NCBI GenBank assembly: GCA_964551135.1
Contig: CAZKAT010000005.1
Location: 198,522 to 262,521 of the forward strand
Direction: 5' to 3'
From: an uncultured Gammaproteobacteria bacterium
GTDB taxonomy: Bacteria; Cyanobacteriota; Vampirovibrionia; LMEP-6097
Length of the DNA stretch: 64,000 nt
A model generated the notes under the pieces. It did not search any database, was not told the origin of the DNA, and saw nothing but the letters and a program-made list of their open reading frames with translations. The position numbers and the translations under genes are program-made. Below are positions 5,927-39,193 of this stretch, one piece after another. Numbering within the stretch: position 1 is the stretch's first letter; every line of letters begins with the position of its first letter.

Positions 5927-5954
5927 ATCCAAGTTTAGTTAACTTAAAACCTAG

Positions 5955-15600: not shown

Positions 15601-18600
15601 TCTATCTATGAAATCACCACTGTCAATTTTAATCCTTACATTATGTTCATTCTTACAGAAATTCGAACCTATGATTTCTATTAAAGCTCCTCCCTTTTCT
15701 TTGGTATGTGCAATATTACCCATAATGAAGTTTATGCTTGTAACTTTGAGACCTGTTCCGTAACTTGTTCTACAGTCACAACTGCCACCACTGCAAGCGC
15801 CTGCTACAGGTAAACTTAAATCACGTATCGGAGTACTATTGTTATCGTTTTTATGATCCGTGATTGAATCAAAATCGCTTATAGGGTCATCTGTAGACTG
15901 TTGCTTTAAACTTGCTTTCAGGTCATTTGGAATATTTTCATCGCCATTCTCTTGATCTATTGGTGTTTTGTAGACTGGAACTGAGTTGCTGATTGCACTT
16001 GCAAAATCACCAACTATAATAGCTTTGCCATAAGCATTCGCTACTTGACCTTTAGCATCAACTACAGTCAATTTGATGTAATAAACGCCTTTACTAGTAT
16101 AGGTATGCGTTGTACTAATACTATTAGAATCGCTACCATCTCCAAAATCCCAATGATAACTTTGTATCTCATAATTTTTAGGATCATAACTTCCATCAGC
16201 ACTCACTGAAACTAAATTAGAGCCAGTATCATGTGTGATTTGTAATTTAGGAATTGGGATTTGATTTGGTAAAACTGTTAAAGTTTCACTCAATACTGGC
16301 TTGTCATCTAATTGATGAACTAATTGATATTGACCAGCTTCTGTGAAGCTTTGTGGAGCATCCAATATACTTGAATTAACTTCGCCATAGGCACTATTAA
16401 AATCATTAGATTTATCTATCAGAACAGTCTTGCCGCTAAGATCTTTTTCATAACCGCGATATATCCATTGATATTGTTCGTTATTAATAGGTCCAATAGT
16501 TACTCCTTTAACAGAACTTGAATCAGTTTCCTCTATTCCAATTAAATTATCAAAACTAAGTGAGCCGACAACAGGTATTTTGGTAGTTACTACTACTGAT
16601 TCTAAGTTTTTAGTACTGAGAATTTTCTTTTCGGCATCATCCTTTCTATAAACACTAAGTACAGGTGAATAAACACCAGGCTTACTATAATTATGAGTCA
16701 GTTCAACTCCATTCGCTGTAAAACCATCTCCCCAATCCCAATTGTAATCCAAGAATTCCGTTCCAGCGTCAAATGGAGTTGCATTGCGGTAATAAATAGA
16801 TGAAGCTCCAGAGAAGCTCATTATCGAACTGCCAAGTACTAAATCATCTACTCTGTTTTTTAACTCAGCATTCAGAATTGGTGGTGGTTCTAGAATGATT
16901 AGTTGAGAACTATAATTACTAATGAGTCCTTTAATGTCAGTAACTTTTAGCACAATATCATAGCTGCCAAATTTATTGAATTTATAAGTAAATTTCGGAC
17001 TAGTTGCCTGAATCAATTGAATTGCTTGATTAGAATTTGCTACTGGGTTATGGTAATTAATAGTCCAGTAATAGTTTCCTATATTGCCGTTAGGATCAGA
17101 GCTAAATAGAGCATCTAATTCAATATTACACGAAAATGTTCCATCAATCTTATATTCAAGGGCTACTTGTCCATTCTCACTAACTCTGCAATCAAAGACA
17201 TTTTTTACAAATTTAGCAACTGGTGGATAGTTTTTCTCTTCCACTACTATATCTTGAAGATTTATTTGAGAGCTTAAGCCTCTAGCATCAGTAACTTTTA
17301 ACCATACTTTGTAAGTACCTGGATCGGTAAAAGTATGACTAATTGTTTTGCTTGATGCTGTGATTGCATTATTGAAGCCCCATTCGTAAGTCAAAGTACC
17401 ATTTTCTGGATCGGAGGACTCGGATGCATCAAAATTTATACTAAGAGGTATTTCACCACTATATTTATCGGCTTTAGCTTTAGCGATGGGAGCTTTATTG
17501 GCTTCTGCAACATTTATGGTTTGTGTATAAGTAGAAGCTTTAAATGATTGTTCGTAAATTTCTAAAGTTACGGTATGTGGTCCGGCTTGATTGAGGTAGA
17601 ATTTGCTGTTTTGATAAATTTGCTCGCGAGGTTCTTCTATTGCCGAATCAATGATAAATCGATATGTTAGATTCTGTCCATTTTGGAAACCACTATTATC
17701 AGCTAGTAATGAAATAAAATTTTGAGCTTCTATGTATTCATTTAATATAGAGAAAGAATTTCCTCTGCAAGCTTTACTGGTACAAGTAACAAATCTCTCT
17801 TCTTCACAGCTATTGACTTGCAATTGTTCGGCAAGGATTCCTCCACAGTTTGCTTGACAAACTCCTTGATTCACCCAAGTATTCCTTGATTCAAGACAAA
17901 CTACACTTTTACTGATAATAATAGGACTTAATTGATACTTTTCACTTAGTCTTCCGTCACTAGTGCGTACTATCAGTGAAGGAATGAAAGTGCCTGGAGA
18001 TCTATATATGTGTGGAACAAGTTTATTAATATTAGTTTCTGCAATTCCATCTCCATAGTCCCAAAGATAAATTAGATTCTCATGAGAATTATTGCGTGGA
18101 TCAAAACTTCCTGAAGCATTGAAATTTATAGTAGCAATATTATTGTCTCTATCATCCACACGAGTATCAATGAGACCTTGAGCTATAGGCTTATCACCTT
18201 GGACTTGAGTAATAATAATAGGGTCCAAAAATCTAAAAACTTTATCAGTTAAATCTGGAGAGTAAGCTATTAATAGTGGCGTATACCTCCCAGCTTTTTT
18301 ATATGCATGGACTATAGATTGTGGAAATTCTGCAAATGGAGCAGTGAAGCTATAATAGTCTTTATAAAAATTATCACCATAAAAAAGAAAAACAGTAAAT
18401 TTTCTCTTGCTTAATGGCATATATGGATTGTCACTGCTAATAGAGTAAGTTATTTTAGAATCCAGTAGGGGAGCCTGGTTGATCCTAGAGAGTAGATTAA
18501 CTTTAAGGTCGCTAGCTTTAACAAACTCATCATAAGGAATGATAGTTTCTTTACTTATTATAATAGGATTGAGAGTAAACTTTGTACTTGTTCTACCATC

Positions 18601-19455: not shown

Positions 19456-20847
19456 GTGAATAAAATGAAAAACAAACTTAGTCTTATAGTCTTTTTATTT
19501 CTAGCAATAATCCTAACAATAAAGCAAGTTCAGGCTGTAGATCCTGCTCCAGCAACTAATTTCATTACTATATACACCACAGTTTTCCATCCGGGCCCAC
19601 AATTATTAGCTAATGGGTCAACAGTGCAATGGGATTTTAATGCGGATGGGACAGTTGATTCTACAGATGTCAATGGCTCATATGTCTTTCCTGGACCTGG
19701 TACTTATAATGTAAAGCTCATTACGACAAATAGTTTAGGAGCTAAAAATAGTACTAAAACAATTACTATAAATGAAACTTTAGTTCTTCCACCTCCACCC
19801 GCTCCTTCAAATTGGATGAACACTGCTTGGAAAGAGCGAGTTAAGCTAACGGTGCCGAGTGGCAAAGTAACTGAAGATTTGATTGATTTCCCTGTTTATA
19901 TAAAACTTGCAGATTTAGGAGATGGTCTCTTTAGTAAAACTAATACAAATTGTGGAGATATTAGAATAACCGACAATACTGGTATTACTGAATTACCAAG
20001 GGAAGTTGTTGCTTGTAATATAACTAATAAAACAGGCGAATTATATTTTAAAGCCAGTTCTTTGAAAACAGCTAGCAATAATGATTTCTATATTTACTAT
20101 GGTAATCCTGCTGCTATTAATTATGATAATACTGCCGTTTATGGAAGAAATAAAGTTTGGACTTCTGATTTTGAGTTAGTTGCTCACTTTGAAGAAAATC
20201 CAGGAACAAGTCTTTTTGTAAATTCTACTGGTGGTATTGGAGGTGCTTATACTAATCTTGGAGGCTTGGCGACATCTGCCGGCTTGGTTGGCAACTCTTT
20301 AGATTGTTCTGCTGTATCTCCTGTCGGATATCTAGACTTAGATCCTTTTAGTGCAAATCAAAGTAGAAATTTTGCCTTCTCTGCTTTTGTTAATTTTAGT
20401 TCAACTGCTGTCCCCCAAGTATTTTTTGAATATGCCACACCTGGCGGGCTCAATACAAGACGTGTAGCTGCTATGTTTAATCCAGGGAAAATCAATTGGA
20501 ATCATAATAATTATGATGGCATCGCAGAGCTTAGTACGACTCTGTCTATAGGCACTTGGTATCATATGAGTATTAATTCTTTAGAAGAAGATAGTGCTCA
20601 TTCAAAACTTAGTACATGGATGGACGGTGTAAGCAACATTTCTAAGCCTGGATATGATTCTGATAATATTACTGCTAATTTAGGAGTCATTTGTGCTAAT
20701 AGACTTTTTGGAGAATCTTATAATGGAAAGATAGACGAATTAAGATTTTATAAGAACTTTAAATCTAATGGCTGGATGATTGCAGAAGACAGTAATTTAA
20801 GATCACCAAGTACTTTTTATATAGTAGGCACTAAAGAGTCATTATAA
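19456..20847 (+). CDS. Secreted protein with a PKD domain, a DUF2341-like domain and a LamG / ConA-like lectin domain.
   Basis: Signal peptide KLSLIVFLFLAIILTIKQVQA (the ATG at 19465 is a likelier start than the GTG at 19456). PKD block VQWDFNADGTVD...GTYNVKLITTNSLG. DUF2341-like segment WKERVKLTVPSGKV...DFPVYIKL...DIRITD...YFKA...DFYIYYGNP. LamG-like W-x-H-x block WYHMSINS...STWMDGV. It is transcribed divergently from the giant gene. Confidence 0.6.
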   Translation: MNKMKNKLSLIVFLFLAIILTIKQVQAVDPAPATNFITIYTTVFHPGPQLLANGSTVQWDFNADGTVDSTDVNGSYVFPGPGTYNVKLITTNSLGAKNSTKTITINETLVLPPPPAPSNWMNTAWKERVKLTVPSGKVTEDLIDFPVYIKLADLGDGLFSKTNTNCGDIRITDNTGITELPREVVACNITNKTGELYFKASSLKTASNNDFYIYYGNPAAINYDNTAVYGRNKVWTSDFELVAHFEENPGTSLFVNSTGGIGGAYTNLGGLATSAGLVGNSLDCSAVSPVGYLDLDPFSANQSRNFAFSAFVNFSSTAVPQVFFEYATPGGLNTRRVAAMFNPGKINWNHNNYDGIAELSTTLSIGTWYHMSINSLEEDSAHSKLSTWMDGVSNISKPGYDSDNITANLGVICANRLFGESYNGKIDELRFYKNFKSNGWMIAEDSNLRSPSTFYIVGTKESL

Positions 20848-20875: not shown

Positions 20876-21685
20876 TTACATCGTTGTAGACTGAGAGAAA
20901 ACTACTTTAGATTGATAATCAATTTTAGACCACTCATTTTCAGTGCAAGAGAAAAGTTGCTTACGCAGGAAAAGATATTCTAGCAGTAAATAAAGTATTC
21001 TAAATCCCTGCTGGAAAACTTTGGCATTACTGATTTGATCCTCTTCCTTCCAGACTAAAGGAAAAAATTTAAAACTAGATTTTACATGACAACCATAGAA
21101 CAGCATAAACACATTGAAAGTAAGATTATTGGGGAAGTATAAATAAAATTTACTCTTAAGATAGTTAGTACTATATATGTTTAAGCCAGCACCCATATCT
21201 GTAATCCAGTAACCAGTTATCATTGAGCATAATAAATTAAGTCCTATATTGCCCCAGGCTCTTATTAAAGGATAATGGATTAGTTTAGAATTTTTATGAA
21301 ATCTTGATCCTAAGAATGAATCATATGCCTGGTATTCACCACTAGTTAAATGAGGCACAAAATCAGCTACTTCACCTTGATCATCACCATGAAGCACTGC
21401 TACATAATCGTAGCCTTGTATTAATGCGTAATTAAAAGCTACTTTATGAGAACCACCTAAATTATAATTGTCACAATTCTGTAGAAGTGTAGTTTTAACA
21501 TATTTAAGTTTCTCAAGTCCCTGCTGAGCTGCACTTAAACTATTGTCCTTACTACCATTGTCAATGATTACAATTTCAGTAAAAAGCTTTTGTATTTCCT
21601 CACTAAATTTACTAAGAACTCTTGGTATCTGCTTTTCGCAGTTATACATTGGGATAAACAACATGAGCTTAGTTTTACTAGGCAT
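20876..21685 (-). CDS. Family-2 glycosyltransferase (DPM1/ArnC-like). It is a paralog of the ORF at 644..1456 in inverted orientation.
   Basis: LMLFIPMYNCEKQIPRVLSKF, IIDNGSKD and HGDDQG. Collinear with the 644..1456 product at roughly 60% identity. Confidence 0.8.
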   Translation of the reverse strand: MPSKTKLMLFIPMYNCEKQIPRVLSKFSEEIQKLFTEIVIIDNGSKDNSLSAAQQGLEKLKYVKTTLLQNCDNYNLGGSHKVAFNYALIQGYDYVAVLHGDDQGEVADFVPHLTSGEYQAYDSFLGSRFHKNSKLIHYPLIRAWGNIGLNLLCSMITGYWITDMGAGLNIYSTNYLKSKFYLYFPNNLTFNVFMLFYGCHVKSSFKFFPLVWKEEDQISNAKVFQQGFRILYLLLEYLFLRKQLFSCTENEWSKIDYQSKVVFSQSTTM

Positions 21686-21716
21686 AAACAGAAATTATAT
21701 AATACAATTCATATAT

Positions 21717-22214
21717 ATGCAGCCTAAGGTCTTTATTCTTGATGTCGATGGAGTTTTAAATACCGGAAGATTTTTTTATAGCGAACAAGGCAAGATGATG
21801 AAAGAGTTTGGAGCAGATGATAATGATGCTCTATCTTTAATAGATGACTTACTTGAAATTCGTTTTGTAAGCGGTGATAAGAGGGGTTTTGCTATTACTA
21901 AGAAGCGAGTAGAAGAGGATATGAACTATCCTCTTGATCTTGTTAGTACATTTGAACGTATTGACTGGATCAAGAAGCGCTATAATCTTGACGAAGTGAT
22001 ATATATGGGAGATGGAGTTTTTGATTATATGGTCTTTAAAGAGGTCGGTTATAGCATTGCTCCAGCTGCCTCTGATGCTTATACTGCGAAACATGCTGAC
22101 TATATCTGTGAGCGTGCTGGCGGTGATAGGGCTGTAGCAGAAGCTTGTAGGCATTTGATGGATAAATTCTTTGGCGGTTATAATCCTGATAAAATATTGC
22201 AAGTTAGGGAATAA
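21717..22214 (+). CDS. HAD-superfamily subfamily IIIA phosphatase, KdsC-like (ulosonate- or sugar-phosphate phosphatase type).
   Basis: DVDGVLN (HAD motif I), MGDGVFD (motif IV) and the overall KdsC-like length. I moved the start to the ATG at 21717 (MQPKVFILDVDGVL), which removes the overlap with the GT2 gene on the opposite strand. Confidence 0.75.
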   Translation: MQPKVFILDVDGVLNTGRFFYSEQGKMMKEFGADDNDALSLIDDLLEIRFVSGDKRGFAITKKRVEEDMNYPLDLVSTFERIDWIKKRYNLDEVIYMGDGVFDYMVFKEVGYSIAPAASDAYTAKHADYICERAGGDRAVAEACRHLMDKFFGGYNPDKILQVRE

Positions 22215-22265
22215 ACCAAAGGGCAATAAAAAATAGTTCGCTATTATCTTGCCGGCTAAACTATA

Positions 22266-23489
22266 ATGATAAAAGATAGACTTGAAAATTTAATGAAGAA
22301 GAGACGCTGTACTCTACTCGGTGTCGGTCCGATGAGTAAGAATTGTGTTGATGCCACGATAGAGCTTGCTAATGATTATCAAGTACCTTTAATGCTTATT
22401 GCTTCTAGACGTCAGATTGATTCTGAAGCTTTTGGTGGTGGCTATGTTAATAACTGGACTACTGAAGAATATTCTCGTTATGTAATTGATCAGGACAAGA
22501 AGGGTTTTATTATTCTTGCTCGTGATCATGGCGGACCTTGGCAGAATACTATCGAGAAAGAACAGAAGCTGAGTTTAAAGCGCGCTATGGAGTCTGCAAA
22601 GAAATCTTATGAAGCTGACATTCTGTCTGGTTTTGAAGTTATTCATATAGATCCAAGTGAAGATATTTTTGGTAATTCTACAACAGATCAGATACTGGAT
22701 AGAGTTTATGAACTTCTAGAATTTTGTACTAGTGTGGCTCAGAGAGCGAGTAAAGATATAGCTTTTGAAATAGGTACTGAAGAGCAAAGTGGTGGTACTA
22801 ATACTCGCGAGCAACTTGAATATGTTTTGCAGAATGTACTGAGTTTTTGCGATAAGAATAAAATTCAAAGACCTACTTTTATAGTTATACAAACTGGTAC
22901 CAAGGTAATGGAGACTAGGAATGTAGGGACTTTTGATTGGCCGCTGAGAATTACTGGTGAGCTGCCAGCTGAGATTCAAGTGCCGCAGATGATAGAGTTA
23001 TGCAATAAATACAATATATTTATGAAAGAGCATAATACTGATTACCTTTCAGATGAAGCTTTGAGCTGGCATCCTAAGTTTGGTATTCATGCTGCTAACG
23101 TTGCTCCAGAGTTTGGAGTAGAAGAGACTAGAGCTTTCTTGAAACTTTTAGAAGACTATAAGTTACCTAAGCTCACTGATAGATTTATTGATCTGGCTTA
23201 TAACTCTCATAAATGGGATAAGTGGATGTTGCCTAATACTAATGCTGGTAAGCGTGAAAGAGCAATCATTGCTGGTCACTATGTTTTTGCTAAGCCTGAA
23301 TTTCAAGAAATAAAACAAGAAGTACAAAAATCTGCAAAAGATGTAGATATAGATCAATATTTAAAAGATAGAGTTAAATTAAGCATTATGAGATACCTTA
23401 AGGCATTTAGACTTTTAGACATATCTAAATATAGTCTTGGTAATGAAATGCTCATCATGAACAAGCAAGAACAGGAGATTAATATATGA
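22266..23489 (+). CDS. GatZ/KbaZ/AgaZ-family protein (tagatose-bisphosphate aldolase accessory subunit / tagatose-6-phosphate kinase family).
   Basis: N-terminal LLGVGPMSKNCVDATIELAND...LMLIASRRQIDSEAFGGGYVNNWTTEEY...ILARDHGGPWQ follows the GatZ family pattern (SVCSAHP...LIEATSNQV...GGYTGMTP...LGGDHLGP). Confidence 0.6.
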   Translation: MIKDRLENLMKKRRCTLLGVGPMSKNCVDATIELANDYQVPLMLIASRRQIDSEAFGGGYVNNWTTEEYSRYVIDQDKKGFIILARDHGGPWQNTIEKEQKLSLKRAMESAKKSYEADILSGFEVIHIDPSEDIFGNSTTDQILDRVYELLEFCTSVAQRASKDIAFEIGTEEQSGGTNTREQLEYVLQNVLSFCDKNKIQRPTFIVIQTGTKVMETRNVGTFDWPLRITGELPAEIQVPQMIELCNKYNIFMKEHNTDYLSDEALSWHPKFGIHAANVAPEFGVEETRAFLKLLEDYKLPKLTDRFIDLAYNSHKWDKWMLPNTNAGKRERAIIAGHYVFAKPEFQEIKQEVQKSAKDVDIDQYLKDRVKLSIMRYLKAFRLLDISKYSLGNEMLIMNKQEQEINI

Positions 23490-24316
23490 AAAGGACTGCT
23501 ACTATAGTTCTGAATAGAAATCTACCTGAAGTTACTAATAAACTTTGTGAAAACATAGAGAAATATAATTCTGAGTTTACTGATGTATATGTAGTAGAAA
23601 GTGGCTCTAATAAAGATTCTCTGTCTAAATATTGTACTTGGCATGCAGCTTGGCCTGAAGCTATAGAAGAGGGTTTGCGCTATCCAAGAGGTTTTAATTA
23701 TGGTTTACATAAATTATATGAAGAGGGTAAGTTTAAACAATATGATTATTTCTTTCTGGTTTGTAATGATGTAGAGTTTTCTACGCCTAATGTTGTTGAG
23801 GTTCTTGAAGAGGAGATTAATAAGCATCCTAGGCTTGGTATTTTGTCACCATGCTCAGAACAATGGGGAGAAAAAATACTTATAACCGGTAATAATGATG
23901 TGAAATATTTTTGGTATACTCAGTTTCTTTCTTGGTTTGTGAGAAGAGAATTTATCGAAGATATATTACCAATGGAAAATTCAAGTCATCTTAATTTCAT
24001 GTTTGATGGTGCTAATTTTAGAGGTTATGGAGTTGATTTAGAGCTGATAGCTAAAGCTTATGCTAATGATTGGGCTTGTGGTATCACTCCTAGAGCTTGG
24101 CAGACAGAGAATGAATCCTACTTAAAGACTAAGGCTGGGATAATGATGACAGATAGTTATGATATAAACATTCAAAAACTACTTGAAGAAGGTAAGAATT
24201 GGATGCGTAATAAATATGGATTTAATAGTCGCTGGCTAATGCAGATGTATTCTAAGAATTTTTATGATAAGTTTTTTGAACACTATCCTGAATTATTGGA
24301 GTATAGAATTAATTAA
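23486..24316 (+). CDS. Hypothetical protein, possibly a divergent GT2-like glycosyltransferase.
   Basis: TIVLNRNLPEVTN...YVVESGSNKD...FFLVCNDVEF loosely follows GT2 beta-strand and DxD spacing. Its start overlaps the upstream stop by 4 nt. Weak call. Confidence 0.3.
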   Translation: MKRTATIVLNRNLPEVTNKLCENIEKYNSEFTDVYVVESGSNKDSLSKYCTWHAAWPEAIEEGLRYPRGFNYGLHKLYEEGKFKQYDYFFLVCNDVEFSTPNVVEVLEEEINKHPRLGILSPCSEQWGEKILITGNNDVKYFWYTQFLSWFVRREFIEDILPMENSSHLNFMFDGANFRGYGVDLELIAKAYANDWACGITPRAWQTENESYLKTKAGIMMTDSYDINIQKLLEEGKNWMRNKYGFNSRWLMQMYSKNFYDKFFEHYPELLEYRIN

Positions 24317-24318
24317 TT

Positions 24319-24666
24319 ATGGTACAAGTAATAAGTAAACCTTGGGGTAAGGAAGAAGTAATAGAAATTAATGATAAGTATATGATGAAGAAACTTACTA
24401 TGCATAAAGGGCATAGATGTAGTATTCAATACCATAATCATAAGAAAGAAACTATTTATGTACTTGAAGGAATTTTAAATATTTATATTGGTAATAGCGT
24501 TGAAACTCTCACTAAGAAACAGTTTCATCCAGGTGAATCTATAACCATTAGTCCTGGTATTGTACATAGGATGGAAGCTGAATTGGGAGATGCTGTCTAT
24601 CTTGAAGCTTCTACTCCAGAAATGGACGATGTGGTTCGTCTAGTTGATGACTATAAACGCAATTGA
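24319..24666 (+). CDS. Cupin-domain protein (mannose-6-phosphate-isomerase-like or sugar-epimerase-like small cupin).
   Basis: PWGKEEVIE...HKGHRCSIQYHNHKKETIYVLEG...GIVHRMEA has the two-His cupin motifs. It ends with a TGA stop that overlaps the TTG start of the next gene. Confidence 0.6.
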   Translation: MVQVISKPWGKEEVIEINDKYMMKKLTMHKGHRCSIQYHNHKKETIYVLEGILNIYIGNSVETLTKKQFHPGESITISPGIVHRMEAELGDAVYLEASTPEMDDVVRLVDDYKRN

Positions 24667-26237
24667 GCTATAAAGTATTAATTCCTACTGCCGGTACTGG
24701 GTCGCGCTTAGCTGATCTTACTAAAAATATAAATAAATCTCTGGTTGCTATTGCTAATAAACCCTGTATCTCACATATTGTAGAAAAATTTCCTAAAGAG
24801 ATAGTGATTGTTATTGCTCTTGGTTATAAGGGTGAACTAGTTAAAGAGTATTTAGAATTAGCTCATTATGATCGTAAGTTTGAGTTTGTAGAAGTAAGTC
24901 CATATGAAGGTGAAGGATCAGGATTAGGTTTGAGCGTGCTTAGATGTAAAGAATATTTGCAATGTCCTTTTGTTTTCTGTTCTTGTGACACCATTGTGGA
25001 TGAAGAGATAGCAGCTCCAGATAGTAATTGGATGGCTTATGCTCAGATAGATGGTCCTGTAGATCAATACCGCACTGTTCTAGTAGAGTCTGGCAAAGTC
25101 TTAAAATTATTAGAGAAGGGAAACAAGGAAAAGAATATTTATCCCTATATAGGACTTGCTGGAATCCATGACTATAAGAGCTTTTGGCAAGCTATGGAAG
25201 CTGGTGATAATGAGGCTATTACTATTGGTGAGAGTTATGGGTTAAGACAATTAGAAAATATTCATGCTTATAAGTTTACTTGGCACGATACTGGTAATCT
25301 TGAGGCTTTAAACAAGGTTCGTGATAAATTTCATGATCTGGATGGTCCTAATATATTAGAAAAACCTACAGAGGCAATTTGGTTTGCTAATGATAGGGTA
25401 ATTAAATTTAATACAGATACTAAATTTATTTCCGACAGAGTCAAACGTACTCAGGTTCTGGGTGATTTTGTGCCGAAAATTATCCAAGCTACAGAACATA
25501 TGTACTGTTATAGAGAAGTCCAAGGCGAAGTACTTTCTAAGATTATCAATTTAAAAATTTTCGAAAACTTACTTAATTATTCTCAAAAATTTTGGAACTC
25601 AACTCCAACTAAACCTAAAAAATTAAGTCCAGAAAAACAAAAATATTTTAAAGATATCTGCACTGATTTCTATAAGATCAAAACATTTCAAAGAGTTGAG
25701 CAATATTACAAAACTTTTGGCAATACTGACAAAGAAGAAAGTATTAATGGTATAAAACATCCAAGCACTAAAACTTTACTTGAAAACCTAGACTGGGACT
25801 GGATTAGCAATGGACTACCTGGTAATTTTCATGGTGATTTTCATTTTGAGAATATTTTATATGATAAAGATGCTCACAAGTTCACTTTTCTTGATTGGAG
25901 ACAAAATTTTGGTGGCGAGATTGAATATGGAGACGTCTATTATGATTTGGGTAAGCTAAATCATGGCATAATCGTTTCCCATGAATTAATAGCAAAAGAC
26001 TTATATGAGGTTAGCATTAATGGTAATGAAGTTAGATATGACCTACATCGTAAGCAGATTTTAGTAGAATGTGAGAGATTCTTTAAAGAATATTTAGAAG
26101 CTAATAGCTATGATTATCAGAAAGTCTATGTAATGACGGCACTAATCTATCTTAATATTGCAGCATTACATCATTATCCTTATTGTCATTTGCTTTATTA
26201 TTTAGGTAAGAGCATGTTGGCTAAGGCTGCGGACTAG
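24663..26237 (+). CDS. Bifunctional N-terminal nucleotidyltransferase fused to a C-terminal APH/ChoK/AmgK-like kinase.
   Basis: N-terminal LIPTAGTGSRLADLT is the canonical AGxGxRL nucleotidyltransferase motif. C-terminal HGDFHFENILYD...FLDWRQNFGG has the Brenner HGDxxxxN motif plus the DW metal-binding segment. It uses a TTG start at 24663 overlapping the upstream TGA stop. Confidence 0.7.
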   Translation: MSYKVLIPTAGTGSRLADLTKNINKSLVAIANKPCISHIVEKFPKEIVIVIALGYKGELVKEYLELAHYDRKFEFVEVSPYEGEGSGLGLSVLRCKEYLQCPFVFCSCDTIVDEEIAAPDSNWMAYAQIDGPVDQYRTVLVESGKVLKLLEKGNKEKNIYPYIGLAGIHDYKSFWQAMEAGDNEAITIGESYGLRQLENIHAYKFTWHDTGNLEALNKVRDKFHDLDGPNILEKPTEAIWFANDRVIKFNTDTKFISDRVKRTQVLGDFVPKIIQATEHMYCYREVQGEVLSKIINLKIFENLLNYSQKFWNSTPTKPKKLSPEKQKYFKDICTDFYKIKTFQRVEQYYKTFGNTDKEESINGIKHPSTKTLLENLDWDWISNGLPGNFHGDFHFENILYDKDAHKFTFLDWRQNFGGEIEYGDVYYDLGKLNHGIIVSHELIAKDLYEVSINGNEVRYDLHRKQILVECERFFKEYLEANSYDYQKVYVMTALIYLNIAALHHYPYCHLLYYLGKSMLAKAAD

Positions 26238-28434
26238 GCAATGCTTGTGTTGTGGCATATATGGCTATAGCTTTATCGGATTTAAGCAATAGTTCCCTGG
26301 CTTTCCCTAAATCAAATTGGGATTGTTCTCTACTTGGAAAAATGAACTTACCATGTTCAGAGTCGAATTGATGGAATTCTCTCGTGGCATCTTGGTAACC
26401 AAGTATCCAAACATAATCGTCATTTGCATATTGATTAATTTTTTCTGTTGTGGCAACAAATTTATACAATCGATACTCGTAAGGTGCTTTATCTGGTATC
26501 TTATCTACTAATTTGAATAAGTTCGGATCTTCAAGCCTTTTCTCTGCTGCCTTAGATAAGGCATTGTTTTTATGAATTAAAATAAAATCTACTCTCAATT
26601 CCTCTAATAGTCTAGGGTTCAAAGTATAAAGAGCTGTTTTTTGCGTAGTATATTCAGGCTTAAGTAATACTCCACCTATATCATAGAACCCTGCGATAAG
26701 CGGACAATCATAAGCCCATGGGATTTGATCTTCGTCATAATGTAGTATTACTCTGCCAGATCTTTGATTAGACTTGAGCATTTTAACTAAGCTTCTTTCA
26801 GTCTTGTTGAATCGATATCCAGTTATCGCAAATCTCTCATTTGGGATGAAATTTGCTAAGCCAGGTAATAAAGAAATTACAAGGCAAACAGGTAAAATGA
26901 ATCGTAGAATTTTTCTCTTGCTGAAAAATTTAAATTCTTTTTCTAAAGCATATAAGCTTATTGCAACAAAAATCATTGCATAAAGCTTAGCTGGGAATAG
27001 GAACCGAGTTAATTCAATAGGTGCAATGCAAAATTCAAAAAGGAAAACTGGAGCAAGGCTGACTAGAGAAGATAGCATTAAAAGTTTTTGTATGAAACTT
27101 AATGATCGTTTTTTGTACCCCCAAATAAATAGAAATATGACTAAGGCTAAGAGGATCATGAAACCAAATTCTCTAAAGGATAAAGAAGAAAACAAAGGTA
27201 CTTCGAATTTATATCTGCCAGCCCTTTCTTCGTAACTTTTGCCTAAGCTAAATAAATACTCGGGCTTATAGAAATAACTTAAATAGCGTAGATAGCCTAC
27301 AGTCCAAGTTAAGTGTGGTTTAAAGCTCATAGCTTCAATACCGTTGATTTTAGATTGACTGCCAGTGAACGTAAGGAGTTTTCCAAGACAAATCATTACG
27401 AAAAATATAACTGTCGGGTTTTGAAAAATTGTTTGAATTTTATTGATGCTTTGTATACTGAAATTAAATAGGAATTTTATTACAAAATAACTAGCTCCTA
27501 GTGTTAATAAGTAGGCTGGGAAAATAAAATAAGACATAAAGGAAACACCTAGAACAGATAAGTAGAAATAGAAGTTTTGTTGTTGATTAGATTCTAATTG
27601 AATGGTCTGTAAAATCAATATGAGTAGATATACTAGACCAAAGAGTATAGGTAGGCTATTAGAACAGCCAGATAAAGCATCAGTTGAAACTTGAGAATTC
27701 ATTAGCCAATCTTTAATGAATTCAAAAAGTTCATATTGCTTCATATTCAATATTTCCCGTACAAGAAAGTCCAGTGAATTAATTGAAGTGAATAATATTA
27801 TTGAAATGCAGGCAAGTAATGAATATTTTTTATTTTCAGCGTCAGAATTAATAATTTTGAAAAGTAATATGGGCAGTAAGAAAGCTGCTATGGCTAATTG
27901 AGCTCCATTTAATGTAAAAGGATCAATATTCTTAGCAAATATTTGAAAGAAAGCACCCACAAGATCAATACCATAATGATAAAAGTTAAAAACTATATCC
28001 TTATTTATTAGAAGTCTAGGAGGGTAATAATCATTCATCGCTATATTTGCCGAATATGCCAGATGTTGTGCGTCACCAATATTCATGAGCTGATTGCGAA
28101 GAAAGCATAATAAGGATAGAAGCATAGAGACTAGTATTAGGATGATCTCGCCTAATTCTGGTTTATTGATTGCAAATGTATTACGATAATTTTTCAGAGC
28201 GAAAACGGCTAAAACTAGCATTGGTATTAAAACAAAATACATAGCTTGCGTGAAGCTGTGTATTAATAAGGCAAGTAAATGCGAAGCTAATATGAATTGC
28301 GATAAGCCAATTAAAATAGAGAGACAAATGAAACTAATTAGTGAACTCTTGAGGTTAGAATTGGATTTTTTATAAATCCAAGCCCCATTGATAAAGATCA
28401 GTCCTAGGACTAGTATTAGGACTATAGAGCTCAT
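26221..28434 (-). CDS. Large polytopic membrane protein (737 aa) with a C-terminal soluble domain. Putative GT-C-like glycosyltransferase or polymerase, one of the paralog family.
   Basis: Many hydrophobic helices in the first ~500 aa. Loop motif NDYYPPRLLINKDIVFNFYHYGIDLVG. The C-terminal domain NPRLLEELRVDFILIHKNNALSKAAEKRLEDPNLFKL is collinear with the 30103..32400 product. Confidence 0.5.
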   Translation of the reverse strand: MSSIVLILVLGLIFINGAWIYKKSNSNLKSSLISFICLSILIGLSQFILASHLLALLIHSFTQAMYFVLIPMLVLAVFALKNYRNTFAINKPELGEIILILVSMLLSLLCFLRNQLMNIGDAQHLAYSANIAMNDYYPPRLLINKDIVFNFYHYGIDLVGAFFQIFAKNIDPFTLNGAQLAIAAFLLPILLFKIINSDAENKKYSLLACISIILFTSINSLDFLVREILNMKQYELFEFIKDWLMNSQVSTDALSGCSNSLPILFGLVYLLILILQTIQLESNQQQNFYFYLSVLGVSFMSYFIFPAYLLTLGASYFVIKFLFNFSIQSINKIQTIFQNPTVIFFVMICLGKLLTFTGSQSKINGIEAMSFKPHLTWTVGYLRYLSYFYKPEYLFSLGKSYEERAGRYKFEVPLFSSLSFREFGFMILLALVIFLFIWGYKKRSLSFIQKLLMLSSLVSLAPVFLFEFCIAPIELTRFLFPAKLYAMIFVAISLYALEKEFKFFSKRKILRFILPVCLVISLLPGLANFIPNERFAITGYRFNKTERSLVKMLKSNQRSGRVILHYDEDQIPWAYDCPLIAGFYDIGGVLLKPEYTTQKTALYTLNPRLLEELRVDFILIHKNNALSKAAEKRLEDPNLFKLVDKIPDKAPYEYRLYKFVATTEKINQYANDDYVWILGYQDATREFHQFDSEHGKFIFPSREQSQFDLGKARELLLKSDKAIAIYATTQALPSPQP

Positions 28435-28435
28435 T

Positions 28436-30073
28436 TCAAATCTTTTCCTTTCTTAACTTAGCAACTCTAAGAGCTATGAACAATAGCATGAAATGTATGA
28501 ATTGTAATCTATATCTTGGTTCACACATGGTTATTAGAATTGGGAAGAATGCAAAATATAGAGCTGAAATTAAGACTATCAATTCAAAAATATCAAATTG
28601 ATGAGTTTTATAGAGATTCAATAAGTACACTATCAAAGCAATTAGAAAAACAGGTAAAATAACCCAAATCCATGGGGTGAATGCAAATAGTCTTTGCCAC
28701 CAAGGTGAGAGACCTTCTACCTTATGCCAAAAGCCATAAGGAGTATCCATATTAACCATAACTAAATATTTATCACTTGGATCCATTTTGAAATAACTAA
28801 AGAAACTATGTGCTTTAGAAAGCTGGTTCTTTTCTATATGTATAACCTGCGCCTCTGAGTGAGCTAATTTGGGATCTAGGTTACTTGTAAGGCTGAAGGG
28901 AACTAGTGTGAATTGTATCGGATTAAATCCAACGTTAGGTCTGATAGAGGACTCATAAACAAAAAGTCCTAGGTCTTCTTTTGCAAACATATTTACCATT
29001 GAAACTCTGAAAATTCTTTTTAAGGTTTTAATTGGTTGTCCTAAGGAAAGATCAAGGAAGTATTCAGTGCAGATCTTAGACCATTCATTAGGAGGAATGG
29101 CTGCTTGAGTATAAGGATGTATTATTCTCCCTTCCCTGCCAGCAACACTGATTCTGGATATCGCTAAATAGAATGGTGATGTAACAGAATTAGTATCGTT
29201 AATAGCAAACTCTTGTTTGAATTTATCCGTAGTGTTAATGAATATATCAGTTAACCAGGGATGCCGAGTTTGAGTTCTGGAGTAGATCATATCTTCCGTT
29301 AAAGCCCAGAGTAGAACACCAGCGCCTGAACGGGCAGCTTCATTGGTGGAGACATCAAAAATCTTAGATTGAGAGTAATTGAAACAACAGATTGGCCATT
29401 TGACAACATAGCTACATGAATAGAAAACAATAGCTGCCAAAATAAACTTGCTGATTTTTTTCTTTAATAGAAAATATAATCCATATAAACCAATCACTAT
29501 TGTGATTGACAGTATCCATAGATCAGAAATCGGTTTGGTAAGGGAAGATAGTCCAGCAGAAAATCCTGCGCTAGCAGCATAGATCCAAAAGAATACTGGA
29601 TTGGAATTATAGAAAATTTCTTGTATTAGTTTAATAGTAAGTAATAAGAAAAATACATGAAAAGCTTCTGGCATAACCACTTGTTCCATATATAGGAGAG
29701 CTGGATTGAGAGAAAATATTATACTTGCTATTAACGCTAATATTCGATTAGAGTTAGCTTGGCAAAGTATCCAGTAGATTAATATAGTGGAAGCTACTCC
29801 ACAAAGTTTATGTAATATGATTACTTCACTAACATCCCCTGTATGGTTAATTTGTATAAAATAATTTATTATCCGATTAAATAATCCAAAGTTAATGCTA
29901 GAAAGTAACCAGCCAAAATTACGTTCATTGATAATTTGCAGAGGGACAAAGTATTTAGGCGAATCTGCTACAAACAATGTAGGTACGTTGGAGCTAAAGC
30001 GTAAAATCAAACTAAATCCAGCAAAGATGAGGAAAGGTAAATGATTATTTAGTATTGTTTTGTTTTTGCTCAT
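28436..30073 (-). CDS. Polytopic membrane protein, putative GT-C-fold glycosyltransferase (ArnT / PMT-like).
   Basis: About 12 predicted transmembrane helices, with a first extracytoplasmic loop carrying VADSPKYF and a large loop in the middle. The layout resembles GT39/GT83 enzymes. Its stop abuts the start of the 737-aa paralog gene (28434/28436). Confidence 0.4.
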   Translation of the reverse strand: MSKNKTILNNHLPFLIFAGFSLILRFSSNVPTLFVADSPKYFVPLQIINERNFGWLLSSINFGLFNRIINYFIQINHTGDVSEVIILHKLCGVASTILIYWILCQANSNRILALIASIIFSLNPALLYMEQVVMPEAFHVFFLLLTIKLIQEIFYNSNPVFFWIYAASAGFSAGLSSLTKPISDLWILSITIVIGLYGLYFLLKKKISKFILAAIVFYSCSYVVKWPICCFNYSQSKIFDVSTNEAARSGAGVLLWALTEDMIYSRTQTRHPWLTDIFINTTDKFKQEFAINDTNSVTSPFYLAISRISVAGREGRIIHPYTQAAIPPNEWSKICTEYFLDLSLGQPIKTLKRIFRVSMVNMFAKEDLGLFVYESSIRPNVGFNPIQFTLVPFSLTSNLDPKLAHSEAQVIHIEKNQLSKAHSFFSYFKMDPSDKYLVMVNMDTPYGFWHKVEGLSPWWQRLFAFTPWIWVILPVFLIALIVYLLNLYKTHQFDIFELIVLISALYFAFFPILITMCEPRYRLQFIHFMLLFIALRVAKLRKEKI

Positions 30074-30102
30074 AAAAGGCCTTACTCTATTATAATAACA
30101 GT

Positions 30103-34914: not shown

Positions 34915-34919
34915 AAAAA

Positions 34920-35318
34920 TTATCCTAATAAGTTTACATAAACTTTATTACCATCAACCTTAAGTTGATACTGTCTTAAAGGCAAGCCTGGATTAGTTTT
35001 ACATGAACCATCAGCACAGGAGAATTGCCAATTATGCCAAAGACAAGTAAACACTCCATCCTTAGCCTTACGATAGCCTACTGGTCCACCAAAATGAGGG
35101 CAAATATTGCTGATAGCTTTCAATTCACCTTCATGTTTATAAAGCAAAATATCGTGATCATTAATCCAACGTGATAATTGTCCATGTGGCTCAAGTTCGT
35201 CTATAGTTGCCAAGAATTGAAAATCTTGTCCCTGTTGGTTTTGATTTTTAACTGTTAATAATGTATCTTCGCTAACCATTTCAATCCAGGATTGTAACAC
35301 AGCAGGCTTAATTTTCAA
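34920..35318 (-). CDS. Rieske [2Fe-2S] domain protein, the N-terminal half of the split oxygenase.
   Basis: CPHFGGPV...(17 aa)...CLWHNWQF gives the canonical CxH-x15-17-CxxH Rieske ligand pattern. Confidence 0.8.
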   Translation of the reverse strand: MKIKPAVLQSWIEMVSEDTLLTVKNQNQQGQDFQFLATIDELEPHGQLSRWINDHDILLYKHEGELKAISNICPHFGGPVGYRKAKDGVFTCLWHNWQFSCADGSCKTNPGLPLRQYQLKVDGNKVYVNLLG

Positions 35319-35337
35319 TCAACCTTAGGGATATATG

Positions 35338-37098: not shown

Positions 37099-37146
37099 AG
37101 TGCTCGCATAGTTATCAGTGAATCATTATATAATTAAGCCTCGAGA

Positions 37147-39066: not shown

Positions 39067-39083
39067 CAATATTCATTTCAAAT

Positions 39084-39141: not shown

Positions 39142-39193
39142 TTAAGAAAAAATATAATGAAATTTAATTCAAATTATTTTTGGATGGGTGCGG

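What the first reader, a model, noticed from the sequence alone, without database searches (positions are those of the whole stretch)
21717..26237. Five-gene operon of a KdsC-like phosphatase, a GatZ-like protein, a GT2-like protein, a cupin and a nucleotidyltransferase::kinase fusion. A candidate novel activated-sugar pathway.
The genes are co-directional with overlaps of 0 to 4 nt. The final gene fuses a canonical nucleotidyltransferase domain (AGTGSRL) to an APH-family kinase domain (HGDFHFEN...LDW). It uses a TTG start that overlaps the upstream TGA. APH-family kinases paired with small nucleotidyltransferases are known as LicA/LicC (phosphocholine) and AmgK/MurU (anomeric MurNAc-1-P to UDP-MurNAc). 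A single-polypeptide fusion in the opposite domain order, joined to a GatZ-type aldolase-associated protein, a sugar-phosphate phosphatase and a cupin isomerase, suggests a salvage-like route of anomeric kinase then pyrophosphorylase to an unusual NDP-sugar or NDP-polyol donor. Together with the separate kinase and nucleotidyltransferase pair at 3268-4964, the island encodes two such pairs.
Basis: partly seen in the sequence, partly recalled or inferred. Interest (0 to 1): 0.6.

Follow-up and report, generated by a model that had tools for sequence, protein, structure and literature searches.

The report
Conserved cassette for a rare activated sugar
This is a real five-gene operon, found in the same order in bacteria from many phyla and apparently undescribed, that most likely turns fructose 6-phosphate into a nucleotide-activated rare sugar (best guess D-talose) for a surface glycan.

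Summary
Five co-directional ORFs at 21717-26237 encode a KdsC-like HAD phosphatase, a GatZ-like protein, a 276-aa protein with no Pfam match that models as a GT-A glycosyltransferase, a PMI-type cupin, and a 524-aa nucleotidyltransferase::APH-kinase fusion.

The fusion is not an artefact. More than 1700 homologues of about 522-530 aa exist, and the AF2 model has pTM 0.88.

The same gene order recurs in 34 of 55 complete related loci from many phyla. In 12 loci the GT-A gene is missing. In 4 loci GatZ and the cupin are replaced by a ribulose-phosphate-3-epimerase-like gene and a HxlB-like SIS isomerase. Some relatives fuse the cupin to the fusion protein.

GatZ's C4-epimerase residues and PMI's Gln/His/Glu/His metal ligands are conserved.

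Best reading (inferred): F6P is epimerised to tagatose-6-P, isomerised to talose-6-P, has its phosphate moved from C6 to C1 by the kinase and phosphatase instead of a mutase, and is then nucleotidylated. The logic resembles the NDP-heptose pathway. The sugar, the nucleotide and the step order are unproven.

I found no paper or curated family model for the cassette.

The parts
21717..22214 (+). KdsC/YrbI-like HAD phosphatase (165 aa), with motif I 'DVDGV'.
   Evidence: NCBIfam TIGR01670 (KdsC subfamily) E 5e-19 but 68.7 bits, below the 106.95 cut-off. It also hits KDN-9-P phosphatase (E 7e-15). Pfam Hydrolase_3 is above its cut-off. A homologue lies near the fusion gene in 52 of 55 complete loci.
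22266..23489 (+). GatZ/KbaZ-like class-II-aldolase-fold protein (407 aa), a predicted Zn-dependent ketose-phosphate C4 epimerase.
   Evidence: Pfam PF08013 31.8 bits, above the 26.7 cut-off. A family profile hits E. coli GatZ 2FIQ at E 6e-7 and 3TXV. D87, H88 and H256 are invariant and E172 is >=90% conserved in 21 homologues. They align to GatZ Asp87/His88/Glu171/His257, the proposed catalytic and Zn set of the F6P<->T6P epimerase (PMC11907403).
23486..24316 (+). Soluble GT-A-fold protein (276 aa), a probable glycosyltransferase. It is an accessory member of the cassette.
   Evidence: No Pfam, NCBIfam or PDB sequence hit. There are 1239 homologues, all unnamed or called 'hypothetical'. The AF2 model has pLDDT 90.2 and pTM 0.91. 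Foldseek against the PDB gives WrtF, PcManGT, TarP, SpsA and GalNAc-T2 at E ~5e-7 and TM ~0.55. No TM segment is predicted. It is absent from 12 four-gene cassettes.
24319..24666 (+). Single-domain cupin (115 aa) of the type II phosphomannose-isomerase kind, a predicted ketose-P/aldose-P isomerase.
   Evidence: Pfam MannoseP_isomer E 4e-12. It matches the C-terminal PMI part of GMP_PMI (TIGR01479 positions 359-467). Q37, H39, E44, H83 and 'HRM' are invariant in 18 homologues. Homologous cupins are fused N-terminally to the NT::kinase in P0371 (38% identity, E 9e-23) and P0311.
24663..25337 (+). Nucleotidyltransferase domain of the fusion (residues ~1-225), of the sugar-1-phosphate NT type.
   Evidence: Pfam NTP_transferase. 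A10, G11, G13, R15, L16, K25, D109 and the W207-x-D209-x-G211 motif are invariant. Best PDB hits of the profile are HddC 5XHW at E 8e-8 and RfbF at 2e-7. The best single-sequence hit is mannose-1-P guanylyltransferase 7X8J at 2e-4. Foldseek gives RmlA-like, MurU, GalU, HddC and LicC at E 1e-12 to 1e-10.
25338..26237 (+). APH/choline-kinase-fold kinase domain of the fusion (residues ~226-524).
   Evidence: Pfam APH hits 20 of 20 family members, best E 1.5e-10. K248, H390-G-D392-x4-N397 and D411 ('LDW') are invariant. No solved structure is detectable by sequence profile. The whole-protein AF2 model has pLDDT 91.5 and pTM 0.88.
20876..21685 (-). GT2 glycosyltransferase (269 aa), divergent from the operon. 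It is a tentative user of the product, possibly a polyprenyl-phosphate glycosyltransferase.
   Evidence: Pfam Glycos_transf_2 E 3e-11. There are weak NCBIfam hits to PpgS, ArnC and dolichyl-P hexose transferase. Homologues adjoin the cassette in L004 (89%), L023, L036, L045 and L046, which all lack the methyltransferase gene.
26221..30073 (-). Two large polytopic membrane proteins (737 aa with ~13 TM segments; 545 aa with a PMT/GT-C hit), convergent with the operon. The link to the cassette is tentative.
   Evidence: PMT PF02366 E 6e-8 for the 545-aa protein. TM counts are from a hydropathy script. Homologues of the 737-aa protein lie next to the fusion gene in L004 (27%) and L005 (43%).
21674..21703 (+). 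Promoter-like site 14 nt upstream of the first gene.
   Evidence: The consensus scan gives 10 of 12 matches, but the number of such sites in the region equals the shuffle expectation. This is weak evidence.

Best explanation
The operon is one copy of a widespread, modular cassette that makes a nucleotide-activated rare aldose for a surface glycan, starting from a central ketose phosphate.

Proposed route for this window:
1. The GatZ-like enzyme epimerises fructose-6-P at C4 to tagatose-6-P by a Zn-dependent retro-aldol/aldol mechanism.
2. The PMI-type cupin isomerises tagatose-6-P to the manno-series aldose, D-talose-6-P.
3. The phosphate is moved from C6 to C1 without a mutase. The APH-type kinase domain phosphorylates O1 and the KdsC-like phosphatase removes the 6-phosphate. 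The order could be kinase first (via a 1,6-bisphosphate, as HldE/GmhB do for heptose) or phosphatase first (via the free sugar).
4. The nucleotidyltransferase domain makes NDP-D-talose. GDP is a weak guess for the nucleotide.
5. The GT-A protein, and/or the adjacent GT2, then transfers the sugar.

Shown: gene content, domain families, conserved catalytic residues, synteny, module swaps and fusions. Inferred: every substrate, the step order, the nucleotide and the acceptor.
For: - Synteny. Of 55 loci with complete flanks, 34 have HAD-GatZ-GT-A-cupin-fusion, 12 lack only the GT-A gene, and 4 have HAD+fusion plus an RPE-family epimerase (Pfam Ribul_P_3_epim E 3e-49) and an HxlB-type SIS isomerase (TIGR03127 175 bits, cut-off 160) instead of GatZ+cupin. 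An epimerase+isomerase pair is thus swapped for another such pair around a constant phosphatase+kinase+NT core.
- Catalytic residues. GatZ's D87/H88/E171/H257 equivalents are conserved. The cupin keeps invariant Q37/H39/E44/H83, which I read as the PMI Gln/His/Glu/His ligand pattern (own knowledge). The kinase Lys, HGDxxxxN and D, and the NT GxGxR, K and WxDxG motifs, are invariant.
- The NT domain resembles sugar-1-P nucleotidyltransferases. The best sequence matches are manno-type guanylyltransferases: HddC at 8e-8 and GMPP at 2e-4.
- Rosetta-stone fusions join the cupin to the NT::kinase.
- In 36 of 55 loci the next gene is a methyltransferase related to the NDP-sugar C-methyltransferase MtmC (4RV9, E 8e-6), with the Methyltransf_14 domain. 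This argues the product is NDP-linked.
- The loci are polysaccharide loci, with GTs, DegT, Gmd, ABC transporters and WbsX.
- In L036, HAD-cupin-fusion without any epimerase sits beside a Gmd-like dehydratase and a DegT aminotransferase. This fits a mutase-free GDP-mannose supply, of which talose is the C4 epimer.
Against: - No enzyme was assayed. All family hits are weak and far below the NCBIfam equivalog cut-offs.
- The kinase's substrate cannot be read from sequence, and no solved kinase is detectable by profile.
- To my knowledge, the characterised APH-type anomeric kinases act on free sugars, and KdsC-type phosphatases act on 8-9-carbon ulosonate phosphates.
- The RPE+HxlB variant has no cupin. 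RPE acting on 3-hexulose-6-P would itself give a net C4 epimerisation, which would leave no aldose-forming step, so the true product could be a ketose.
- A GT-like neighbour family (c6, ~405 aa) accompanies both variants, which hints that the two variants could make the same product.
- I know of no bacterial polysaccharide containing D-talose as a hexose (own knowledge). The full-text search surfaced mainly papers on O-antigens and 6-deoxy-sugar pathways, not hexose D-talose.
- The MtmC-like methyltransferase would need a keto sugar if it is a true C-methylase.
Confidence: 0.5

Rival explanations
1. The logic is the same but the substrate is a heptulose. Sedoheptulose-7-P is C4-epimerised and isomerised to an unusual heptose-7-P (for example D-glycero-D-talo-heptose), phosphorylated at O1, dephosphorylated at O7 and activated as an NDP-heptose. 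This would be a non-orthologous copy of the GmhA/HddA/GmhB/HddC pathway.
For: The best PDB match of the NT-domain profile is HddC, the heptose-1-P guanylyltransferase (E 8e-8). KdsC-family phosphatases prefer longer sugars (KdsC and KDN-9-P phosphatase hits). In Chlorobium an HldE-like gene (PfkB + CTP_transf_like) and an NT lie just upstream of the cassette. By stereochemical reasoning, a PMI-type isomerase on S7P would do what GmhA does.
Against: The only GatZ-family activity reported in the paper I read is on hexose 6-phosphates. The HddC match is only marginally better than those to RfbF, GalU and RmlA. The Chlorobium locus already has its own heptose genes, so the cassette would be redundant for heptose.
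Confidence: 0.15
2. The product keeps a keto group. It would be an NDP-ketose such as NDP-tagatose or a 3-hexulose derivative, or a sugar that is C-methylated next to the carbonyl in relatives. The cupin then has another role.
For: The RPE+HxlB variant lacks any cupin. HxlB interconverts 2- and 3-ketoses, so RPE plus HxlB could amount to a C4 epimerisation ending at tagatose-6-P (chemical reasoning). The usual sixth gene resembles C-methyltransferases that need a keto sugar. The GT-like c6 family is shared by both variants.
Against: The cupin keeps a full PMI-type metal site and is fused to the NT::kinase in some organisms, so it is catalytic and central. NTs of this class normally take aldose-1-phosphates (own knowledge). 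No APH-type kinase for a ketose anomeric OH is known to me.
Confidence: 0.12
3. A LicA/LicC-like head-group pathway. The kinase phosphorylates a small alcohol or polyol made by the other enzymes, the NT makes a CDP-alcohol, and a phospho-substituent rather than a glycosyl residue is transferred to a glycan.
For: JGI names several homologues 'choline kinase'. LicC is among the NT matches (E 7.5e-5; Foldseek). LicCA-type NT-kinase fusions exist (own knowledge).
Against: No LicD-type or CDP-alcohol phosphotransferase and no choline transporter appears among the recurrent neighbours. The partners are sugar-phosphate epimerases and isomerases. An NDP-sugar-type methyltransferase and glycosyltransferases are the usual neighbours.
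Confidence: 0.07
4. A catabolic or salvage module for an imported free sugar, not a de novo biosynthetic route.
For: To my knowledge, APH-type anomeric kinases paired with NTs (AmgK/MurU, NahK) are salvage enzymes. GatZ works in galactitol and tagatose catabolism.
Against: No sugar transporter or regulator is conserved with the cassette. It always sits in glycan-assembly loci. A phosphatase is a constant member, which makes no sense for salvage of a free sugar.
Confidence: 0.04

Closest known systems
NDP-heptose pathway (GmhA isomerase, HddA or HldE kinase, GmhB phosphatase, HddC or HldE nucleotidyltransferase)
   Same: The logic is the same: ketose-P to aldose-P isomerase, anomeric kinase, removal of the distal phosphate by a HAD phosphatase, then an NT. 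In HldE the kinase and NT are also fused although they catalyse non-adjacent steps. The NT domain's best profile match is HddC.
   Different: Except for the NT, every protein comes from a different family or subfamily: cupin instead of SIS, APH fold instead of GHMP/PfkB, and KdsC-like instead of the HAD-IIIA GmhB. An extra C4 epimerase step precedes the isomerase. The substrate is probably a hexose.
E. coli GatZ/KbaZ C4 epimerase, with the F6P -> tagatose-6-P -> tagatose route via a HAD phosphatase (PMC11907403)
   Same: The fold is the same, and the proposed Asp/His/Glu/His catalytic and Zn set is conserved. The epimerase is likewise paired with a HAD phosphatase.
   Different: The relationship is distant (NCBIfam 27 bits against a 569-bit cut-off). 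Here the enzyme is embedded in a glycan-biosynthesis cassette, not in galactitol or GalNAc catabolism.
AmgK/MurU and NahK (APH-fold anomeric sugar kinases feeding a small NT)
   Same: An APH-fold kinase is paired with an RmlA/MurU-type NT. MurU is among the top structural matches.
   Different: Those are separate proteins in salvage of free amino sugars. The NCBIfam MurU score is 25 against a cut-off of 250. Here the kinase is fused to the NT and coupled to de novo enzymes and a phosphatase.
Bifunctional FKP (fucokinase/GDP-fucose pyrophosphorylase) and LicCA (CTP:phosphocholine cytidylyltransferase-choline kinase)
   Same: These are single polypeptides with an N-terminal NT and a C-terminal kinase, so this domain order has precedent (the FKP abstract shows it is bifunctional; the domain order and LicCA are from my own knowledge).
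   Different: FKP's kinase has the GHMP fold, and LicCA acts on choline. Neither is associated with an epimerase, an isomerase or a phosphatase.
ManA/ManB/ManC route to GDP-mannose (type II PMI cupin fused to ManC)
   Same: The cupin matches the PMI part of GMP_PMI and keeps invariant Q37/H39/E44/H83, which fit PMI's Gln/His/Glu/His ligands as I know them. The HAD-cupin-fusion variant next to a Gmd-like gene (L036) looks like a GDP-mannose supply.
   Different: There is no phosphomannomutase; a kinase plus a phosphatase stand in for it. In this window an added C4 epimerase would shift the product to the talo series.

Membership tests
KdsC/YrbI phosphatase (TIGR01670; NF007019 KdsC equivalog) | Score at or above the curated cut-off of the subfamily or equivalog model. 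| tested here: not met
   68.7 bits against 106.95 for the subfamily, and 57.1 against 208 for the KdsC equivalog. The protein is KdsC-like, not KdsC.
KdsC/YrbI phosphatase (TIGR01670; NF007019 KdsC equivalog) | HAD motif I, DxDG(V/T), at the N-terminus. | tested here: met
   'FILDVDGVLNTG' in the translation. The same motif is present in homologues.
GatZ/KbaZ family (PF08013) | Pfam gathering score. | tested here: met
   31.8 bits against 26.7, but only over the N-terminal half (residues 13-181). The family profile hits GatZ 2FIQ at E 6e-7 over residues 22-262.
GatZ/KbaZ family (PF08013) | Asp87/His88/Glu171/His257 of E. coli GatZ (catalytic base and Zn ligands of the C4 epimerase, PMC11907403). 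| tested here: met
   D87, H88 and H256 are invariant and E172 is >=90% conserved in 21 cassette homologues, and they align to the GatZ residues.
GatZ/KbaZ family (PF08013) | Orthology to GatZ/AgaZ/KbaZ (NCBIfam equivalog cut-offs). | tested here: not met
   27.4 bits against 568.8 and 27.3 against 707. This is a distant branch of the family.
GatZ/KbaZ family (PF08013) | F6P<->T6P epimerase activity. | not testable with these tools
   This needs an enzyme assay.
Glycosyltransferase family 2 / GT-A fold (for the 276-aa protein) | Sequence match to PF00535 or another GT model. | tested here: not met
   No Pfam hit even at E<=10, no NCBIfam hit and no PDB sequence hit.
Glycosyltransferase family 2 / GT-A fold (for the 276-aa protein) | GT-A fold. 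| tested here: met
   The AF2 model has pLDDT 90.2. All top Foldseek PDB matches are GT-A glycosyltransferases (WrtF, PcManGT, TarP, SpsA), at E ~5e-7 and TM ~0.55.
Glycosyltransferase family 2 / GT-A fold (for the 276-aa protein) | A DxD-type acidic motif after strand 4 and an early nucleotide-binding acidic residue. | tested here: inconclusive
   The alignment shows invariant E38 ('VVESGS'), invariant N94 and >=90% D95 ('NDxEF'), and invariant D174 and E186. The motif is ND rather than DxD.
Type II phosphomannose isomerase cupin (PF01050) | Pfam gathering score and the Gln/His/Glu/His metal-ligand pattern. | tested here: met
   46.8 bits against 23.6. Q37, H39, E44 and H83 are invariant in 18 homologues. 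The ligand identities of PMI are from my own knowledge.
Type II phosphomannose isomerase cupin (PF01050) | Membership of the bifunctional GMP/PMI equivalog (TIGR01479). | tested here: not met
   44.8 bits against 372.95. Only the C-terminal cupin part matches.
Sugar-1-phosphate nucleotidyltransferase (PF00483) | Gathering score, the N-terminal GxG(T/S)R(L/M) loop, a conserved Lys, and the WxDxG motif. | tested here: met
   30 bits against 21.2. 'AGTGSRL', K25, D109 and W207-H-D209-T-G211 are invariant or nearly so.
APH/choline-kinase-like phosphotransferase (PF01636) | Gathering score, the Brenner motif HxDxxxxN, a downstream metal-binding Asp, and the ATP-binding Lys. | tested here: met
   26.3 bits against 23.2, with 20 of 20 homologues hitting. 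H390, D392, N397, D411 and K248 are invariant.
AmgK/MurU | Score at the MurU equivalog cut-off. | tested here: not met
   NF045761 gives 25.3 bits against 250.
LicA/LicC (phosphocholine) system | A LicD-type phosphocholine transferase and a choline transporter in the locus. | tested here: not met
   The eleven window neighbours scanned against Pfam include no LicD-type or LicB-type protein. No such family is among the recurrent neighbour clusters that were annotated.
NDP-heptose pathway (works-like comparison) | The set isomerase + anomeric kinase + HAD phosphatase + NT encoded together. | tested here: met
   The set is present in the window and in 46 of 55 complete loci. The proteins are not orthologues of GmhA, HddA or GmhB.

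The most novel reading that the evidence does not exclude
The cassette is an undescribed and widespread route to a nucleotide sugar not known in nature, NDP-D-talose (methylated in most relatives). A GatZ-type C4 epimerase is recruited to glycan biosynthesis, and a kinase/phosphatase pair replaces the phosphomutase. In this window the product would feed the adjacent GT2 and the GT-C-like membrane proteins, giving periplasmic glycosylation through a lipid carrier, possibly of the neighbouring 4220-aa PKD-rich surface protein.
Probability: 0.22. Interest if true: 0.75.

Novelty: new variant of a known kind. Interest (0 to 1): 0.6.

Why it matters
If the model is right, it adds a rare-sugar donor and a mutase-free 6-P to 1-P activation module. 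That module appears portable across phyla, and a distant homologue occurs in phages. It would give a function to three protein families now annotated as 'hypothetical' or just 'phosphotransferase'. It would extend the newly recognised GatZ C4-epimerase activity from catabolism to glycan biosynthesis. It would also supply enzymes for one-pot synthesis of talo-, manno- or allo-configured NDP-sugars from fructose-6-phosphate. The swap of GatZ+cupin for RPE+HxlB is a natural experiment showing how sugar identity is set by exchangeable epimerase/isomerase modules around a constant activation core.

Tried and rejected
- Sequence searches of the PDB found nothing useful with the single GatZ-like protein, the GT-A protein, or a kinase-domain profile. 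Only a family profile recovered GatZ.
- Foldseek with the whole fusion model returned only NT-domain matches in its top 50, so the nearest solved kinase stays unknown.
- The exhaustive HMMER search with the kinase domain listed only members of the same fused family in its top 150, so it did not reach any characterised kinase.
- Four full-text searches found no paper on the cassette: GatZ+NT+cupin; bifunctional anomeric kinase/NT; GatZ with O-antigen or capsule; D-talose with O-antigen.
- The plasmid collection had only remote hits.
- I considered and rejected a missed-stop artefact for the fusion.
- I considered and rejected GatZ as a non-catalytic aldolase partner, because no GatY-type aldolase is in the cassette and the catalytic residues are kept.
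- I considered and rejected the GT-A protein as a glycosyl-3-phosphoglycerate synthase working with the HAD phosphatase, because the HAD gene is present whether or not the GT-A gene is.
- I could not confirm the 321-aa ORF at 3268-4233 as a kinase.

Full report
OBSERVATION

- 21717-22214: HAD phosphatase, 165 aa from the ATG.
- 22266-23489: GatZ-like protein, 407 aa.
- 23486-24316: 276-aa protein.
- 24319-24666: cupin, 115 aa.
- 24663-26237: fusion, 524 aa, TTG start.

The junctions are a 51-nt gap, an ATGA overlap, a 2-nt gap and a TTGA overlap. So "overlaps of 0 to 4 nt" is true for three junctions, not four. The TTG start is right, because the N-terminus MSYKVLIPTAGTGSRL aligns to residue 1 of 19 homologues.

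Pfam places four proteins above gathering score: Hydrolase_3, GatZ_KbaZ-like, MannoseP_isomer, and NTP_transferase plus APH. NCBIfam adds a KdsC-subfamily match for the first protein, at E 5e-19 but below the cut-off. The third protein matches nothing by sequence.

THE FUSION IS REAL AND COMMON

- The word-indexed search found 1745 homologues. The top 120 are 520-575 aa long and about 55% identical. They come from Sulfuriflexus, Chlorobium, Bdellovibrionales and a Pacearchaeota bin, and carry no better name than 'phosphotransferase' or 'choline kinase'.
- An exhaustive HMMER search with the kinase domain alone found 402 clusters (at 50% identity) with E<=1e-30. Nearly all have the kinase at residues ~230-520 of a ~520-aa protein.
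- The AF2 model has pLDDT 91.5 and pTM 0.88.
- The NT motifs (A10, G11, G13, R15, K25, D109, W207-x-D209-x-G211) and the kinase motifs (K248, H390-G-D392-x4-N397, D411) are invariant.
- The NT domain resembles sugar-1-phosphate nucleotidyltransferases: Foldseek gives RmlA-like, MurU, GalU, HddC and LicC, and the profile's best PDB hit is HddC at 8e-8.
- The kinase domain is seen only by Pfam APH (20 of 20 members). No solved structure is detectable by profile.

THE CASSETTE IS CONSERVED AND MODULAR

A scan of one genome per species found 182 relatives, and 80 loci were fetched. They come from Proteobacteria of all classes, Campylobacterota, Chlorobi, Bacteroidota, Planctomycetes, Verrucomicrobia, Cyanobacteria (including Prochlorococcus and Synechococcus), Melainabacteria, Clostridia, Spirochaetes, candidate phyla and others.

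Among 55 loci with complete flanks:
- 34 have the window's five genes in the window's order.
- 12 have HAD-GatZ-cupin-fusion without the 276-aa gene. These include Campylobacter concisus, Marinomonas, Wolinella and Aliiglaciecola.
- 4 have HAD+fusion followed by a ribulose-phosphate-3-epimerase-family gene and an HxlB-type SIS isomerase, with neither GatZ nor cupin. Five more loci of this kind lie at contig ends.
- 1 has HAD-cupin-fusion only.

In short, a constant phosphatase+kinase+NT core is combined with exchangeable epimerase+isomerase pairs. Two relatives carry a homologous cupin fused N-terminally to the NT::kinase: P0371, 38% identity to the window's cupin with E 9e-23, and P0311.

In 36 of 55 loci the next gene is a 377-aa methyltransferase. 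Its best solved relative is the NDP-sugar C-methyltransferase MtmC (E 8e-6), and it carries the Methyltransf_14 domain. The window lacks this gene. Instead it has, divergently upstream, a GT2 gene whose homologues adjoin the cassette mainly in loci without the methyltransferase. All these loci are polysaccharide loci.

THE INDIVIDUAL ENZYMES

GatZ-like protein. A profile of 21 cassette homologues hits E. coli GatZ (2FIQ, E 6e-7). GatZ and KbaZ were recently shown to be C4 epimerases interconverting F6P and tagatose-6-P. The proposed Zn ligands are His88, His257 and Glu171, with Asp87 as base (PMC11907403). The window protein has D87, H88, E172 and H256 at the aligned positions, invariant or nearly so across the family.

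Cupin. It matches the PMI part of bifunctional GMP/PMI. It keeps Q37, H39, E44, H83 and 'HRM' invariant. That is the Gln/His/Glu/His ligand pattern of phosphomannose isomerase (own knowledge), which argues for a phosphosugar substrate.

276-aa protein. It models with pLDDT 90 as a GT-A fold. Its structural neighbours are all glycosyltransferases, at TM ~0.55. So 'GT2-like' holds at fold level, but it is not a recognisable GT2 by sequence.

MECHANISM (INFERRED)

1. F6P is epimerised to tagatose-6-P by the GatZ-like enzyme.
2. Tagatose-6-P is isomerised to D-talose-6-P by the PMI-type cupin. This parallels F6P to mannose-6-P, since talose is the C4 epimer of mannose.
3. The phosphate is moved from C6 to C1 by the kinase plus the phosphatase.
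4. NDP-talose is made by the NT domain.

Either order of kinase and phosphatase is possible. Kinase first would go through a 1,6-bisphosphate, as in HldE/GmhB, where kinase and NT are also fused around a phosphatase step. That order also suits a KdsC-like enzyme, whose normal substrate carries an anionic group at the anomeric end. Phosphatase first would go through the free sugar, as KdsC precedes KdsB, and the APH-type anomeric kinases I know of take free sugars. I cannot decide between these orders.

Locus L036 supports the frame. There, HAD-cupin-fusion without an epimerase sits next to a Gmd-like dehydratase and a DegT aminotransferase. This is as expected if the epimerase-less version supplies GDP-mannose. 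The best single-sequence and profile matches of the NT domain are manno-type guanylyltransferases, which is a weak hint for GDP.

CAVEATS AND RIVALS

- The substrate could be sedoheptulose-7-P, giving an unusual NDP-heptose.
- The RPE+HxlB variant has no cupin. By chemical reasoning, HxlB followed by RPE acting on 3-hexulose-6-P and then HxlB again would amount to a C4 epimerisation ending at tagatose-6-P. A GT-like family (c6, ~405 aa) accompanies both variants with intermixed similarity. The product could therefore be a ketose or keto sugar, which would also suit a true C-methyltransferase.
- A LicCA-like phospho-alcohol pathway and a salvage role are unlikely given the partners and the neighbourhoods.

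No enzyme was tested, and all family matches are far below the equivalog cut-offs.

- NT-then-kinase fusions are precedented by FKP and LicCA (for FKP being bifunctional; the domain order and LicCA are own knowledge).
- The 'second pair' at 3268-4964 has a genuine NT at 4230-4964. The 321-aa ORF has no family hit, carries HGNPTLEN with Asn replacing the catalytic Asp, and gives only a weak profile alignment.
- That ORF sits with a DHQ-synthase-like cyclase and an SDR, which suggests a different, cyclitol-type pathway.

NOVELTY

I found no paper, Pfam family or NCBIfam model for the cassette, the 276-aa protein or the fused kinase family. The parts belong to known superfamilies and the logic mirrors the NDP-heptose pathway. 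I therefore rate it a new variant of a known kind. It is of real but moderate interest, and would rank higher if the product proves to be NDP-D-talose.

Noticed in passing
window 1453-4964 (- strand): A second small cassette: an SDR (1453-2184), a 3-dehydroquinate-synthase-like sugar-phosphate cyclase (2123-3268; aroB 214 bits, below the 305 cut-off; AroB-related TIGR04425 176 bits), a 321-aa ORF with no family hit that carries HGNPTLEN...IDL (Asn in place of the catalytic Asp), and a 244-aa NTP_transferase. It looks like an NDP-cyclitol or carbasugar-type pathway.
   Followed up: partly
L084 (Enterococcus phage 9183, MT939241.1) 4645-6620; also phages Planchet and TJE4, and Marine virus AG-345-E15: Phages encode a full-length NT::APH-kinase homologue (23% identity over 542 aa, E 6e-27; HGDLFFGN and IDPRG motifs). 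It directly follows and overlaps a small HAD hydrolase gene. Both lie inside a nucleotide-metabolism block (thymidylate synthase, dUTPase, dTMP kinase, 'nucleotide sugar synthetase-like'), which suggests sugar modification of phage DNA or of a nucleotide. The phage HAD is not similar to the window's HAD.
   Followed up: partly
P0371 (773 aa) and P0311 (820 aa), relatives from the 50%-identity library: These are triple fusions in which a cupin homologous to the window's cupin (and probably a second cupin-like domain before it) is joined to the NT::kinase.
   Followed up: yes
Related loci such as L001 11568-12704 and L060 11568-12710; absent from the window: A 377-380-aa methyltransferase related to the NDP-sugar C-methyltransferase MtmC follows the fusion gene in 36 of 55 complete loci. 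The window, L004, L005 and the loci with the GT2 neighbour lack it.
   Followed up: partly
window 26221-32400: Three large polytopic membrane proteins lie in a row (737 aa with ~13 TM segments; 545 aa with a PMT/GT-C hit; 765 aa with ~14 TM segments), each with a soluble C-terminal part. This architecture resembles GT-C glycosyltransferases that use lipid-linked sugars.
   Followed up: partly
window 6643-19305 (-) and 19456-20847 (+): A 4220-aa ORF, with repeated regions read by eye from the translation as PKD-like (not scanned against Pfam), and a 463-aa PKD + DUF2341 + LamG protein lie immediately upstream of the glycosylation genes. They are possible glycosylation targets.
   Followed up: no
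window 39105-39153; L004 7233-7273 and 9548-9596: A ~45-nt element in a window intergenic region occurs twice in the related MAG locus L004 (90-98% identity). There it is inserted in the HAD/GatZ and GT-A/cupin intergenic spacers of the cassette, so it may be a small dispersed repeat.
   Followed up: no
window 644-1456 (+): This region shows 67% nucleotide similarity to the cassette-adjacent GT2 gene of L004, so the window probably holds a second paralogue of that GT2. It was not checked against Pfam.
   Followed up: no
L004 (CAYPGT010000002.1, 'uncultured Gammaproteobacteria' MAG): This is the closest relative of the window. The cassette is 80-87% identical in DNA, and the flanks matching window 33352-40978 are syntenic, but the membrane-protein block differs. 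Both sequences have about 33-37% G+C.
   Followed up: partly
20 related loci, such as L030 12758-13975 and L048 8098-9309: A ~405-aa GT-like family (weak Glyco_trans_1_2 and GT90 hits) accompanies both the GatZ+cupin and the RPE+HxlB versions of the cassette, with intermixed similarity. This may mean that both versions make the same sugar.
   Followed up: partly
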